Assembly (NCBI GenBank): GCA_031426555.1
Contig: JANPLN010000025.1
Coordinates: forward strand, 1 to 64,000
From: Bdellovibrionales bacterium
Lineage (GTDB): Bacteria; Bdellovibrionota; Bdellovibrionia; Bdellovibrionales; JAGQZY01
Length of the DNA stretch: 64,000 nucleotides
Direction: 5' to 3'
The notes beneath the pieces were generated by a model, which had not been told where the DNA came from, did not search any database, and was given only the letters and a program-made list of their open reading frames with translations. The position numbers were made by a program, and so were the translations under genes. Below are positions 3,517 to 58,189 of the stretch, piece by piece. Positions within the stretch are counted from its first letter, which is position 1. The number at the start of each line of letters is the position of its first letter.

Positions 3517-4767
3517 ATGCTTGCCAATCAATCCTCTGCCCTGCTATTTTTTTTCTTACTACTCGTCAATCCAGCCCATGGCAAAAACCGCTGTGACGTT
3601 CTCTTTCAAGCCAATATGGTGGCACTCAACACAATTAAAGAAATTGATTTTACTAAGACGCCGGAATTTGCAGAGCTGCAAAAAACCTACCCTGACTTAA
3701 AACCCATGGCCCAATATGGGCAAACAGGCACCCTTATTTTGCACGCGAGCTCTCTATCGCTCGATGGGTATAAATACTACCAGAGCCTATTAAGTCATTT
3801 ACCGGCGGACGTGCGCACCCTGCTTGTTGGTAGCGCGAGCGATTACGATAGCTTTGTACGATTTAATTTTTCCCATCAGGCACGAAAAATAGAAAATGAA
3901 TCGGCCAGTGAATCATTGGATACCTTTTTACAAGTGCAAAACGAAGTTACGCCCACAGGCAGCCAAAACCCCGTTTCTCGCTGGGTGCAGGATCACATGG
4001 GACTTTATGTGACCTACAAGGGCTGGGATAATAAACCGGTTGTCGCCATGGTCACTTCGGACTATCGATTCAATTATAAAATTTCGGACCAGTTGGCTAA
4101 ATATTTAGGCGTTCAAATTATCAAAAATATTTCCGGGCAACACGAGTGGGGAAATTTTACTGTGATTGGTGACACTGGGTATACGGTCTACGGACCGAGA
4201 ACCCATTCAAGTTTAAAGCTCGAAGACTTTATGGCAACCGGGGTCCGACGGCTTGTGCTCTTGCCACAGCCAAAATTTGGAGACAAAGGCTTGGGCATTC
4301 CTCACACTGACGAATTCCTGATTCCGCTGTCTGAAAATCACGTCCTCACCAATGTTGCAGACTATTTTGAGTATTTTAAAGGTCAAGGAAAGCGTGTTGA
4401 ACTACTTCCCAGCAACGCCGATATTGGTCTCGATCACTTAACGTACACCAATGCGGTTTTGGTGAATGGCGAAAATAATCGCGTTTTGTTTGTTCCACAA
4501 TTTGGAGGTCTTTCAGCAACCCAACTCTTTTTTGGAGCTCCATTAGGAGCAGAAGCTATCAAAACACTCAAGCAGCGAGACAAAGAAGCCCTCAATGCCT
4601 ATAGAGTTATGGCCAAAGAGTTAAATATCACTGTAGTCCCTGTGCACTCTGCCGAAGCGACGTTGAATAATTTTGGTGGAATTCACTGTGCCACAGGAAT
4701 TTGCGCGGCCACACCCAATGCCGATCGCGGAGCTTCGTGGTATCCGAAGGGCGACGGCCCTCTCTAA
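3517..4767 (+). CDS. Secreted amidinotransferase-superfamily (peptidylarginine/agmatine deiminase-like) protein
   Basis: Signal peptide ending AHG; SRWVQD, HTDEF, YTNAV, GGIHCAT motifs give a Cys-His-Asp catalytic set. Confidence 0.72.
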   Translation: MLANQSSALLFFFLLLVNPAHGKNRCDVLFQANMVALNTIKEIDFTKTPEFAELQKTYPDLKPMAQYGQTGTLILHASSLSLDGYKYYQSLLSHLPADVRTLLVGSASDYDSFVRFNFSHQARKIENESASESLDTFLQVQNEVTPTGSQNPVSRWVQDHMGLYVTYKGWDNKPVVAMVTSDYRFNYKISDQLAKYLGVQIIKNISGQHEWGNFTVIGDTGYTVYGPRTHSSLKLEDFMATGVRRLVLLPQPKFGDKGLGIPHTDEFLIPLSENHVLTNVADYFEYFKGQGKRVELLPSNADIGLDHLTYTNAVLVNGENNRVLFVPQFGGLSATQLFFGAPLGAEAIKTLKQRDKEALNAYRVMAKELNITVVPVHSAEATLNNFGGIHCATGICAATPNADRGASWYPKGDGPL

Positions 4768-4791
4768 GAAAACTGATGACTCCCTAAAAAA

Positions 4792-7700
4792 TCATGAGCC
4801 TGGCCAATCCAATCGATCCAGCATTCGCGGCGTTGGCTGATGGCTGCGGATTTTTTCATTGGTTGCAAACGAGCTGACAGTTTCCACCAAGATGTTTACT
4901 TGCTCGCCCATGCGCTGCACCCGACCTTCGATGGTTAAAAACCGTGAGCTTCTGAAAGTACTTTTGTATCTGTCGTAAATTTCGGGGCGCAGGATTAAAT
5001 CCATGGTGCCGAATTCATCTTCGAGGGTGATAAAGCCAAAACCTTTTGCCGGTGGTGGTCGCTGGTCCACCAGCAAAATTCCCGCCACCGAAATCATTTT
5101 GTTTTTGCTGACACTTTTAAGAAGTTTGGAATTGAGCGGCGGCAGGTGCGGCAGTTCAAGCCGTAAGAGCTTCGTTAAGCTTCCCTGCAAACTGTAACCC
5201 GTCACGCGGTAATCGATAATAGCTTCTTCGAGTTTGGTCATGGGCGCAAACAGTGGTTTGTCGTCGACGAGTTCTAGGTTTTCGTCAAAAAGACTCAGTT
5301 GTTGGCTTGCCTTGTGGCGTCCGAGTAAATTTTTAAACTCTAAAGACTTCCAAAAAGTATGGCGGCGGTCCACGCCAAAACATTCAAAACAATTGTTAAT
5401 GGTTAAATTGCTGAGCACATCGCGATCAAAATGGGTTCTGGCGATAAAGTCTTCGATGGACTGGAATGCACGAAGCCCGCGCTGGTGAATCATTTTCTCC
5501 ACGTCGTCTTGGCGAATCTTTCGCACATTGCGAAAGCCCATGCGCAGAGTTTTTGCGCCTTCCATCTGCGCATCCCACACCGAGAGCTGCGGATGAATGG
5601 GCAGCACCTTCACTTCGCTGTTGCGGACGGCTTCGTTAATTAAAAAATCCACATGATAAAATCCCATGGGTTGGGAATTGATCAGCGCACACAGGTACTC
5701 CGCGGGATAATGTCGCTTTAAATAGGCCGACTTAAATGCCAACGACCCGTAAGAGGCCGCATGCGCTTCGGGAAAACCATAGCTTGCAAAGCCTTGAGTG
5801 CGATTTAAAATATCTGTTGCGAGGTTTTCTTTAATTCCGCAAGCGACAAGAGCTTTGTAAAGTTTAACTCCTTGGCTTTCTACGCTGGAGGCGCTTCGCT
5901 CTTTGCCCAGAGAACGACGAAGTTGATCGGCCTCTGCCGACGAAAAGCCACACACGTCCATGGCAATTTGCATGATCTGATCTGGGAACATGGCAACACC
6001 GTGGGTGCGCACTAAAATTTTATCCATGGCGGAATTTCCACTGGTAAACCGCCGCCCGCGTTTGGCTTCGGCGCGGCCGCGCAAATAGGCGCGACTCATT
6101 CCGCCTTTGCTCATGCTCGGGCGAATCAACGCCACTTGGATTGTCATTTCGTAGGGATTGCAAGGCTGCGTGTGTGGGAGTGAACTCATCTGCGCGCGGG
6201 ACTCAATTTGAAAACAGCCCGCCGTTTCTGCTCTATGAATCATTCTGTAGGTGGCTTCATCATTCACCGGAATGTCTTGCCACTCCATTCCTACAAGCTC
6301 CGTTGCCTTGCGAATAGCGGTGAGAAACCCGATGGAGAGAATATCAATCTTCATCATTCCCAGGGTTTCAAGATCGTGTTTATCCCACTGAACAATGGTT
6401 CGCCCGTCCATGGCGGCGGGTTCGATGGGCACGGTTTCTACGAGCGGCTCGTCGGTGATCACAAAACCTCCCGAGTGGGTGCCAATGTGTCTGGGAAAGT
6501 TTGCAATTTCGCTTGTGAGTGTACCCACAAACACGCCTCGATTTGCGTGCTCGCGCGCCAGCTCCGTAAACCGCTGACGAACCACATCGGCTTTGAGTAC
6601 GCCCACGTCCACCCCGATGGCTTTACAGATTTCGCGAAAAGCGCCCGCAGCTTTGTAGGTGTGCACCGCCGCCACCATACCGGCGCGGTGCCGCCCGTAA
6701 CGGGAAAAAATCCCTTGAATCACTTCTTCCCGGCGTTCGTGTTCAAAATCCACATCAATGTCGGGAGGGTCTTTGCGGGCCACATTGGCAAAACGATCAA
6801 AGAGCAGATTGCTCGCAATGGGGTCCACCGCCGTGATACCCAAGGAGTAACATACGATAGAACTCGCGGCAGAGCCTCGTCCTTGAAACACAATTTTTTT
6901 TTCGTGCGCTTCTTTTAAAATATCGTGCATCGTAAGAAAATAATCTTCCTCTCCCCGCGCGGCAAAAAAATCAAGTTCGCGGCGAATCTGTCGATCCACT
7001 TCATTGGAAATAAAACCTTTGTAGCGTTTCTTTGCGCCTTCAAGCACTAATTCACGAAGATAGCTCTTTGCCGTATGACCTTGAGGTACAGCTTCCCGCG
7101 GATAATTGTATTTGAGCTCGGAGAGCGAAAAGTGACAGCCTTTAGCGATTTCTTCCGTCGCCGCCAAAGCTTCGGGAAGATCTTCGAAAAGAATTTCCAT
7201 TTGCAGAGAAGATTTTAAATATCGTTCTTCGTTACTAAAAAGTTTAAACCCCGCCTTATCGAGCGTTGTTCCCTCGCGAATGCAAGTTAAACAGTCTTGC
7301 AAAGGTCTCCGTAAGGGCTCGTGGTAATGAACATCGTTTGTTGCCACAATACTCAACCCGTGGGTGTCCGATAGTTTATAAGCTTGTGTATTTCTCACGT
7401 CATCCAGACCGTCCAGATAGCGACAAAGACCTAAATAAAGTTTTTTTTCGAAAAGCCGTTTTAAAATCGCAAAATTATTTGTTTCGTCGTTTTTTAAAAT
7501 GCATACTAGCTCTGAGGTGCCGGGAAATCGTTTGCTCAAAAACTCAAGCTCGTCCAGAGTGATGGCGCCTTCGCCTTTTAGTTTGCCGGCGTGCACTTGC
7601 GTGATGAGTCTGCACAGCAGTCCCCAGGCCGCTCGTGTTTGCGCAATGAGGGTGATAGCTGGATGGCCTGTGACGGTGATTTCAGCGCCGCAGATCAGTA

Positions 7701-57522: not shown

Positions 57523-57643
57523 TTATTCTCCGATCTCTCAATCTCACGGGGGTTTCTTGCCTCGCAGTTTTAAAATTCAATTTCAGTTCAAAATATGAAC
57601 CACAAGTCAAAACGAAGCAATAGCAAAGCCAGAGGCAAGCATC

Positions 57644-58189
57644 CTATTGTGAGACTTGATTCTTTCTTAAAAAAATCACTTCCACTTGATTTCTAATACT
57701 TGGCAGACCAGGCACTGTTCCCCCAGCGTCCACGATGTGAACTTCTTTAAATCCATATTCGGCAGCCAGCTTCCCCGACCAGGTTTTTGCTGCTGCCGTT
57801 TGCGGGTTGTCCCCAAGATCTCGAAAAGCGTAATACTGGGAGAGGTTCGTACCACCCATCCAGATTCCTGAAATGCCAATGATATTTTCGGATCCAAATT
57901 GTTGGATCATTTGTGCGTAGAGTTCTCTTCCCGTATAGACGCTGCGGATATGTCGACTTCCAAGGTTTAAGTACGCCTCAATAAATACAATCCCAGCATC
58001 GGTAAGGCTTGCCTCAAAAACGAAACCATAGGTTCTATCCACATAACGAAAAAAGTCTGGGTGTTTTTCGAACTCTTCCACTCCACGCACAACCGCTAGT
58101 GGAGTAAAAAGATTTATGCAACTCATCTTGCTGGATGCCTGCGCGGAAACCAAAAATGATCCAAGGAACCAGCTCATAATCATTGCCAT
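57644..58189 (-). CDS. Secreted protein with polymorphic-toxin-like C-terminal domain
   Basis: Signal peptide AQA|SSKMSCINLF; GRELY..M...FG, GIW.GGTNL, AAAKTWSGKLAAEYGF resemble a pattern recalled from RHS C-termini (not searched). Confidence 0.55.
   Translation of the reverse strand: MAMIMSWFLGSFLVSAQASSKMSCINLFTPLAVVRGVEEFEKHPDFFRYVDRTYGFVFEASLTDAGIVFIEAYLNLGSRHIRSVYTGRELYAQMIQQFGSENIIGISGIWMGGTNLSQYYAFRDLGDNPQTAAAKTWSGKLAAEYGFKEVHIVDAGGTVPGLPSIRNQVEVIFLRKNQVSQ

What the first reader, a model, noticed from the sequence alone, without database searches (positions are those of the whole stretch)
3517..58189. Shared 'signal peptide + CxxLF' N-terminus on three unrelated toxin-like secreted proteins
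Seen: 3517 (AHG|KNR-CDVLF), 11766 (AWA|GPT-CSELF) and 58189 (AQA|SSKMS-CINLF) all have C-x-x-L-F beginning 4-6 residues after the predicted cleavage site. Their C-termini are unrelated: deiminase-like, ART-like and polymorphic-toxin-like. The Cys is not in a lipobox. Inference: CxxLF may be a sorting or carrier-attachment tag (for example a disulfide tether) defining a polymorphic effector system in a probable predator. Two of the three genes sit directly beside the HUH elements, which could be involved in their movement.
Basis: partly seen in the sequence, partly recalled or inferred. Interest (0 to 1): 0.8.

Follow-up and report, generated by a model that had tools for sequence, protein, structure and literature searches.

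The report
Lone-cysteine tag on predator's exported enzymes
Dozens of unrelated enzymes in Bdellovibrio-type bacteria carry the same five-residue tag, with one unpaired cysteine, just behind their predicted export signal; it is likely a covalent handle that loads an exchangeable arsenal of enzymes for delivery into prey cells, and we found no description of it in the papers we could search.

Summary
Confirmed, and larger than reported. All three genes read signal peptide + C-x-x-L-F. The genome (a Bdellovibrionales relative) has 25 curated carriers: C-x-x-[LIVM]-F occurs in 22 of 768 predicted exported proteins against 1.5 in shuffles. A tag profile finds it in 28 of 45 sampled genomes of the order, including B. 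bacteriovorus proteins (HD100 Q6MJD9), and not in E. coli at the same cut-off. 101 tagged proteins fall into 79 families. The tag cysteine is unpaired: 80 of 101 have no other Cys, and 95 of 101 have an odd total. Cargo: deiminase (3517), degenerate ART-like (11766), a GNAT-fold domain that elsewhere tips RHS/Hint/eCIS toxins (58189); also Fic, ART, topoisomerase IB, nucleases and hydrolases. Many need cytoplasmic cofactors. There are no immunity genes as a rule, and no conserved carrier gene nearby. HUH elements sit beside the genes but do not carry them. Best reading: a docking helix whose cysteine bonds to an unidentified partner (0.45); main rival: atypical lipidation by a second Lgt (0.25). 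The scan noted this tag before on other genomes (e1-3313322, e1-2984804). Not found in print in 10 searches.

The parts
3517..4767 (+). Tagged exported protein 1: peptidylarginine/agmatine deiminase-like pentein, catalytic motifs W-x-x-D, H-x-D and GG-x-H-C present
   Evidence: PAD_porph weak; family profile hits solved PAD/agmatine deiminases, E 3e-11 to 3e-6
3592..3606 (+). Tag C-D-V-L-F (Cys26, mature +4)
11161..11766 (-). Tagged exported protein 2: degenerate R-S-E type ADP-ribosyltransferase-like domain (S-x-S and Glu kept; NAD-binding Arg absent in 4 of 4 homologues)
   Evidence: ADPrib_exo_Tox clusters at 0.95; weak; fold prediction failed
11686..11700 (-). Tag C-S-E-L-F (Cys23, the only Cys of the mature chain)
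57644..58189 (-). Tagged exported protein 3: GNAT-like fold; the same domain is the tip of PT-HINT, RHS and eCIS_core proteins in other bacteria
58106..58120 (-). Tag C-I-N-L-F (Cys24, the only Cys; lies outside the confidently folded domain in the model)
11895..12882 (+). Y1/HUH transposase element (ORF 12348-12839), one of 11 related copies in the genome; upstream of the tagged gene and not enclosing it. Bystander.
58299..59304 (-). Second Y1/HUH element (ORF 58362-58871); same insertion site in the orthologous loci L066 and L067. Bystander.

Best explanation
C-x-x-[LIV]-F is a conserved tag with one unpaired cysteine, placed just behind a predicted Sec signal peptide on many unrelated enzymes of Bdellovibrionales, and it likely works as a docking handle that bonds by a disulfide to a dedicated, still unidentified envelope partner which would route these enzymes into the prey cell. 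Steps: (1) shown: the tag exists, is portable, is order-wide and keeps its Cys unpaired. (2) Predicted: Sec export with signal peptidase I cleavage leaves the Cys at mature +3 to +14. (3) Inferred: the +3/+4 hydrophobic pair shares a helix face with the Cys and docks in a receptor groove, like the mitochondrial Mia40 signal, so that the Cys forms a mixed disulfide in the oxidising periplasm. (4) Inferred: the cargo is held or carried to the predator-prey interface and would be freed by reduction in prey cytoplasm, as AB-toxin A chains are. (5) Inferred: enzymes needing ATP, NAD(P)H, acetyl-CoA or DNA act only there, so the predator needs no immunity genes.
For: Enrichment; 25 curated carriers plus 2-3 variants. 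Cys purge: 7 further Cys in 8,207 residues against 74-96 expected, 9 in 12,393 and 20 in 11,106. After the tag 80 of 101 have none, 15 have two and 6 have one; untagged exported proteins are odd in only 83 of 386. Three of the 4 exceptions in this genome are Cys-dependent enzyme folds. Internal control: 5 of 5 untagged exported deiminase homologues, one an FQNC-type lipoprotein, keep a Cys pair that 2 of 2 tagged ones lack. In the GNAT family 78 of 88 signal-bearing members have a Cys after the h-region and 68 have no other; only 2 of 150 look like a lipobox. Spacer length varies between orthologues. The tag is outside the folded domain in the model. Cargo families: Fic, ADPrib_exo_Tox, Topoisom_I, PPDK_N, CP_ATPgrasp, FMO-like, EEP, DUF559, ParBc_2. 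The tag flavour drifts by genome (+2 is Ser in 8 of 11 in G032, Asp/Glu/Asn in 16 of 25 here). The genome has five DsbA-like proteins and a VKOR-DsbA-like fusion. A plain Sec peptide already releases a reporter from B. bacteriovorus (PMC12622784 passages), so the tag must do more than release.
Against: No partner was found: no gene family recurs beside tagged genes other than synteny between close relatives (328 neighbouring proteins). Loss of free Cys is expected for any cytoplasmic-type fold that crosses an oxidising periplasm (established knowledge), so the purge alone does not prove a disulfide. 15 of 101 keep two further Cys. Two Lgt matches are present in 38 of 41 genomes, which keeps lipidation alive. 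Much cargo is hydrolytic or metabolic and could act outside a cytoplasm. This organism is uncultured: predation is inferred from its order. The ART-like member looks degenerate. Signal peptides come from a heuristic.
Confidence: 0.45

Rival explanations
1. Atypical lipidation: a second Lgt (with or without the second LspA) puts a lipid on the tag Cys, and x-x-L-F is a sorting signal. The enzymes then ride on the outer membrane or on vesicles and pass to prey at membrane contact, like myxobacterial SitA lipoprotein toxins.
For: Two Lgt and two LspA in this genome; at least two Lgt matches in 38 of 41 and two LspA in 40 of 41 relatives; two Lgt in 5 of 5 further phylum genomes. A single Cys near the N-terminus is what a lipoprotein shows. 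The lineage already uses an atypical FQNC box (14 proteins). SitA precedent (PMC10433427 passages).
Against: Lipobox not met: there is a polar, often charged spacer of variable length behind a signal peptidase I type site. Canonical lipoboxes almost never replace the tag in the GNAT family (2 of 150). Lipoproteins here keep other cysteines (124 of 153), and the lipoprotein deiminase keeps the Cys pair that tagged ones lost. Tagged genome G075 has only one LspA, and the duplicates also occur in genomes with no tag hit.
Confidence: 0.25
2. The tag is a mainly non-covalent recognition helix for type II secretion or a Tad/type IV pilus machine; the Cys is kept for fit or for a passing disulfide with a DsbA-like chaperone.
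For: Four secretins in T2SS, type IVa and two Tad-like loci (read by eye); five DsbA-like proteins, one without a CxxC by eye; genes scattered as T2SS substrates usually are (established knowledge).
Against: An invariant unpaired Cys and odd parity in 95 of 101 are hard to explain without covalent chemistry. Untagged exported paralogues exist.
Confidence: 0.15
3. Tag-to-tag disulfide: the short helices pair with each other to make homo- or hetero-dimers of cargo enzymes, with no carrier.
For: One free Cys on an amphipathic stub suits dimer formation; tagged genes are sometimes adjacent (C21 and C23 pairs).
Against: It gives no reason why 79 unrelated families should share one sequence, nor why the consensus drifts genome by genome.
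Confidence: 0.08
4. Different target (compatible with any of the chemistries): the arsenal is aimed at protist grazers or hosts rather than bacterial prey.
For: Some cargo is eukaryote-like: WD40, DUF559/RAP, TPR, DUF6829. Lack of immunity genes also marks anti-eukaryote toxins (PMC3482391 passage).
Against: Tagged proteins occur in cultured bacterial predators, and the GNAT tip domain comes from RHS/Hint/eCIS conflict proteins.
Confidence: 0.15
5. HUH elements mobilise tagged genes as passengers.
For: 3 of 36 slots flanking the 18 Y1 transposases hold tagged genes, against about 0.3 expected (P 0.004; 0.013 against exported genes only).
Against: The genes lie 110-130 bp outside the conserved element ends, always on the upstream side. 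23 of 26 tagged genes have no element beside them. Of 33 loci from relatives only the two orthologous sites L066 and L067 have one (most of those loci have only 1.5 kb flanks).
Confidence: 0.05

Closest known systems
Polymorphic toxin systems (Zhang et al. 2012, PMC3482391)
   Same: Constant N-terminal trafficking part plus exchangeable enzyme domains; the 58189 domain is a tip of PT-HINT, RHS and eCIS_core proteins; ART, Fic, nuclease, transglutaminase-like and papain-like cargo.
   Different: The trafficking part is a Sec peptide plus five residues, not a domain; there is no adjacent immunity gene as a rule and no orphan cassette arrays; many cargoes are digestive enzymes. The held text (first 300,000 of 357,715 characters) never names Bdellovibrio.
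Myxobacterial SitA lipoprotein toxins (PMC10433427)
   Same: Many scattered exported effectors with one N-terminal Cys and variable C-termini that act in a target cytoplasm.
   Different: SitA has a lipobox, an escort domain and SitI immunity, and needs TraAB exchange between kin. Here there is no lipobox, no escort domain and no immunity gene.
Mia40 MISS/ITS signal of mitochondria (PMC2806287)
   Same: Works-like analogy: a short amphipathic helix with hydrophobic residues 3 and 4 positions from a docking Cys that forms a mixed disulfide with a receptor, shared by unrelated substrates.
   Different: Unrelated system. The ITS needs an aromatic residue 7 positions away, which is not conserved here, and it ends in intramolecular disulfides, whereas most tagged cargo has no second Cys.
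Disulfide-linked A chains of AB toxins (recalled, not from a call)
   Same: An enzyme tied by one disulfide to a delivery part and released by cytoplasmic reduction.
   Different: No B subunit is encoded beside the genes; one shared partner would have to serve dozens of cargoes.
Bacterial lipoproteins (Lgt/LspA/Lnt)
   Same: Signal peptide followed by an invariant Cys.
   Different: The Cys follows a signal peptidase I type site and a polar spacer, and the conserved residues lie after the Cys, not before it.

Membership tests
Classical polymorphic toxin system | Conserved N-terminal trafficking element with variable C-terminal enzyme domains | tested here: met
   101 tagged proteins, 79 families; one weak pair among 25 in the genome
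Classical polymorphic toxin system | C-terminal domains shared with other conflict systems | tested here: met
   58189 domain behind PT-HINT (4 proteins), RHS (1) and eCIS_core (1) among 19 family members scanned; ART and Fic in relatives
Classical polymorphic toxin system | Adjacent cognate immunity gene | tested here: not met
   Next gene is convergent in 16 of 25; of 5 small same-strand neighbours only one is a plausible candidate
Classical polymorphic toxin system | Toxicity to a target cell | not testable with these tools
   needs expression tests
Lipoprotein (SPase II) | Lipobox directly after the h-region, small residue at -1 | tested here: not met
   -1 is S/R/Q/T; hydropathy before the Cys -0.48 against +2.29
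Lipoprotein (SPase II) | Diacylglyceryl on the Cys | not testable with these tools
   two Lgt paralogues exist
Mia40-type docking signal | Hydrophobic residues 3 and 4 positions from the Cys | tested here: met
   +3 is L/I/V/F and +4 is F in 25 of 25 (selection criterion); independently +4 is L or F in 61 of 78 GNAT-family members
Mia40-type docking signal | Aromatic residue 7 positions from the Cys | tested here: not met
   +7 is not conserved
Porphyromonas-type PAD / agmatine deiminase (3517) | Catalytic Asp, His-x-Asp and Cys motifs | tested here: met
   W156, D159, H263, D265, H390, C391 invariant in 7 of 7; motif meaning recalled. The family profile hits solved deiminases, but 3517 alone is below the Pfam cut-off.
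R-S-E ADP-ribosyltransferase (11766) | NAD-binding Arg, S-x-S and catalytic Glu | tested here: inconclusive
   S-x-S and Glu align with an intact tagged ART; Arg missing in 4 of 4; Atlas 0.95; hhalign probability 10%; model unusable
GNAT acetyltransferase (58189) | GNAT fold | tested here: inconclusive
   Foldseek best E 2.5e-3 to a GNAT; VIA Z up to 7.7, best named GNAT Z 7.5 / rmsd 3.6 / 119 aligned, most of the top 50 rows are acetyltransferases. Middling scores; activity untested.
Passenger gene of an IS200/IS605-type element | Gene lies between the element's conserved ends | tested here: not met
   110-130 bp outside in 3 of 3

The most novel reading that the evidence does not exclude
Bdellovibrionota have an undescribed two-step effector pathway: Sec export, then covalent loading of any cargo that bears a five-residue cysteine handle onto one shared, lineage-specific carrier that delivers a swappable arsenal of up to tens of enzymes per genome into prey cytoplasm, with reduction as the release switch. 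It would be a minimal programmable delivery tag and would answer how these predators place cytoplasm-acting enzymes inside prey.
Probability: 0.3. Interest if true: 0.93.

Novelty: new variant of a known kind. Interest (0 to 1): 0.78.

Why it matters
How Bdellovibrio-type predators get enzymes into prey is open: a 2025 review says evidence for these enzymes and secretion systems remains limited (PMC12428579), and a 2025 methods paper calls secretion largely unexplored (PMC12622784). The tag gives a sequence rule that picks candidate effectors out of hypothetical proteins across the order, many with no Pfam match (24 of 29). It also gives one residue to mutate and one adduct to pull down in a genetically tractable strain (HD100 Q6MJD9 carries AQA|ALT-CESVF). 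If the tag is portable, it is a five-residue handle for loading enzymes on a living antibiotic.

Tried and rejected
Carrier by gene neighbourhood: nothing recurs. Shared promoter motif: best gapped-word P about 3e-5 among very many words tested, not convincing. Longer homologues of 58189 by the word-index search: none; the full HMMER scan did find them. 58189 in phages: no match. Fold of 11766: pLDDT 33, unusable, not searched. No model for the tag in Pfam, NCBIfam, PADLOC or PHROGs scans of carriers. RelE-like C-termini of two carriers were noticed by eye only; the pairwise test gave E 1.0, so they are not claimed. DsbB not found with PF02600. The second LspA does not track the tag. No RNA holder listed for window 3400-4800. 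Q6MJD9/CAE80621 not found in 7 supplementary files of the HD100 proteome paper; one file was unreadable and the tables may use other identifiers. No complex prediction was run, because no partner candidate had a usable prior. 400 kb samples gave 1 clear tag in G137, 0 in G060, and 1-3 variant lone-Cys proteins in G007; these samples are too small to show absence. Profile hits outside the order were true in only 3 of 7 inspected. Literature: searches found no description; the direct motif search gave 3 irrelevant papers. Subscription papers are not covered.
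Full report
1. Observation. The three ORFs and their N-termini are as described. The whole genome (G000, 3.14 Mb, 72 contigs, 100% complete) was translated and classed with a hand-made signal-peptide heuristic, which is noisy: 768 of 3,021 genes were called exported. CxxLF lies within the first 14 mature residues of 12 of the 768 (shuffle mean 0.59, maximum 4 in 1000), and Cxx[LIVM]F in 22 (mean 1.5, maximum 7); cytoplasmic controls were 3 and 5 of 1,683. Hand curation from 138 loose matches gave 25 carriers. 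A profile built from them scored these 15-34 bits and nothing else above 11 (circular for the seeds). Three more probable members exist: a paralogue of 58189 with CFEFL, a gene cut by the end of contig C10, and a hydrolase with CADTF. The Cys sits at mature +3 to +14, median +5 (23 measured). It is not a lipobox.

2. Range. Close homologues of 58189 come from records titled Bdellovibrionales. The first profile matched 31 of 41 genomes at E<=0.05, and 25 of 29 best hits inspected carried the motif. A broader profile matched 28 of 45 genomes of the order and 13 of 155 outside it at E<=0.002. On inspection 17 of 18 hits inside the order and 3 of 7 outside were true. E. coli gave one hit at E 0.015 and none at 0.002. 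A further 40 lower-ranked hits held 38 matches to the pattern. Cluster look-ups name tagged proteins from Bdellovibrio and Pseudobdellovibrio, including B. bacteriovorus HD100 Q6MJD9/CAE80621.1, which reads AQA|ALT-CESVF. Counts per genome are lower bounds, biased to this lineage. In G107, from another class, two otherwise unrelated proteins share a variant, C-x-Q-[FY]-T-R-G-[LI]-F; one is a Fic protein. A third protein with PPDK_N has a similar stretch (3 among 1,112 genes sampled). Within the order the flavour drifts by genome.

3. The cysteine is unpaired. In this genome 21 of 25 carriers have no other Cys, against 9 of 131 other exported proteins with an early Cys, and 7 further Cys occur in 8,207 residues where 74-96 are expected. 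A length-matched control gives 111 of 297 Cys-free (P 7e-6). Across 101 tagged proteins, 80 have none after the tag, 15 have two and 6 have one; untagged exported proteins have an odd count in 83 of 386. Kin are not independent, but the 101 fall into 79 families. Three of the four exceptions in this genome are Cys-dependent folds. The deiminase gives a natural control: five untagged exported homologues, one of them an FQNC-type lipoprotein, keep a Cys pair that the two tagged orthologues lack (one evolutionary event). In the 58189 family (993 hits at E<=0.001, best 150 read), 88 look signal-bearing, 78 of these have a Cys after the h-region, 68 have no other, and +4 is L or F in 61 of 78. These were selected by the domain, not the tag, although the profile included the N-termini of seven tagged members. 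Caveat from established knowledge: free cysteines are selected against in any exported protein, so the telling fact is that this one is kept.

4. Cargo. 3517 is a deiminase-type pentein with its catalytic motifs. 11766 resembles exoenzyme-type ARTs (weak), keeps S-x-S and the Glu, and lacks the Arg in 4 of 4 homologues, so it may be inactive or divergent. 58189 folds with confidence from residue 31 and resembles GNATs at middling scores. Other carriers: transglutaminase-like, DUF559, EEP, ParB-like, prolyl oligopeptidase and glutamine-amidase-like in this genome; topoisomerase IB, ATP-grasp, FAD oxidoreductases, Fic, an intact ART, PPDK_N, WD40, alpha/beta hydrolases, C1 peptidases and an aminotransferase in relatives. 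Many need ATP, NAD(P)(H), acetyl-CoA or DNA (established knowledge), which points to a cytoplasm other than the producer's. Others are plainly digestive, and 24 of 29 in the last batch have no Pfam match.

5. Context. Genes are scattered. The next gene is convergent in 16 of 25 and only one plausible immunity candidate appears. No neighbour family recurs beyond synteny. GC content is ordinary. Eighteen Y1 transposases exist, 11 in one family. Three flank tagged genes (P 0.004-0.013), but always outside the element and upstream of the gene, and the 58189 insertion is shared with orthologous loci. I read this as insertion into dispensable intergenic space, not transport. Envelope machinery: four secretins (T2SS, type IVa pilus and two Tad-like loci by eye), five DsbA-like proteins, no DsbB match, and two Lgt and two LspA, a duplication found across the order. 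The second LspA is missing from tagged genome G075, while two Lgt are present in 5 of 5 tested there.

6. Mechanism. Shown: a portable tag with an unpaired Cys and a hydrophobic pair, outside the folded domain, on a fast-turning-over set of enzymes. Inferred: it docks on a receptor and forms a mixed disulfide, as the Mia40 signal does (PMC2806287 passages), and reduction in prey would release the cargo, as for AB toxins (recalled). I put this at 0.45, lipidation by the second Lgt at 0.25, non-covalent recognition by T2SS/Tad at 0.15 and tag-to-tag dimers at 0.08. That the tag is a functional sorting or anchoring mark of some kind I put near 0.9, and that the cargo is aimed at prey near 0.7. 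A bare Sec peptide suffices to release NanoLuc from B. bacteriovorus (PMC12622784 passages), and two Sec nucleases reach the bdelloplast (PMC7925074 passages; whether they are tagged was not determined). So the tag is not needed for mere release.

7. Known or new. It has the layout of polymorphic toxins but fails the immunity criterion; it resembles SitA and lipoproteins but fails the lipobox. No library model covers the tag, and ten literature searches found no description. Papers seen as passages only: PMC12419801, PMC12428579, PMC2806287, PMC7925074, PMC3482391, PMC3239186, PMC13689555, PMC10433427, PMC12622784, PMC12546842 (127 supplements searched). PMC11870529 was seen as abstract and outline. 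Earlier notes of this scan saw the same tag in two other genomes; these are AI notes, not support, though I confirmed the pattern independently. Verdict: real, undescribed as far as searched, a new variant of the polymorphic-effector theme, and directly testable; interest 0.78.

Noticed in passing
G000:C65:20959-21933 (-) and G000:C53:3127-4200 (+): A second LspA (about 320 aa, with an extra membrane and HAMP-like tail by eye; catalytic motifs kept) and a second, longer Lgt, conserved across Bdellovibrionales (40 of 41 and 38 of 41 genomes with two matches). Substrates unknown.
   Followed up: partly
genome-wide, e.g. G000:C57:24283-26370: At least 14 exported proteins have an atypical [FY]-Q-[ND]-C box, and all have further cysteines; a candidate substrate class for the second Lgt/LspA.
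   Followed up: partly
window 11895-12882 and 58299-59304: A roughly 1 kb Y1/HUH element family with 11 copies, several decayed, with a conserved hairpin-bearing 5' end; the copy at 59106-59193 holds four 22-bp repeats.
   Followed up: partly
L122:12706-13902, L124:394-2718, L205:9440-13828 (G107): Variant tag C-x-Q-[FY]-T-R-G-[LI]-F, and a longer form, on unrelated Fic, PPDK_N and unknown proteins in another class of the phylum.
   Followed up: partly
window 4792-10654: Error-prone polymerase cassette: a DnaE-type polymerase (DnaE2-like by eye) with two upstream genes, and a divergent SRAP gene.
   Followed up: no
window 19182-20207: EEP-family protein without an obvious signal peptide that is homologous to the tagged EEP on C24: a possible cytoplasmic source of a tagged cargo.
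   Followed up: partly
G000:C25:72769-73932 and C44:40898-42034: Two further exported deiminase-like penteins without the tag; the family is found in 19 of 24 genomes of the same family.
   Followed up: partly
G000:C41:8341-9702 and C8:60469-61773: Large DsbA-like proteins with atypical active sites (CESC; none by eye), possible thiol-handling partners.
   Followed up: no
L020:5004-7313 (G000:C15): Tagged 770-aa protein matches phrog_1745 (E 1e-28; annotated 'DNA transfer protein') and shows phosphoesterase-like motifs by eye.
   Followed up: no
window 13762-16272: 836-aa Cys-rich exported protein with two DUF1402 stretches and SH3-like parts, next to an Amidase_2 gene.
   Followed up: no
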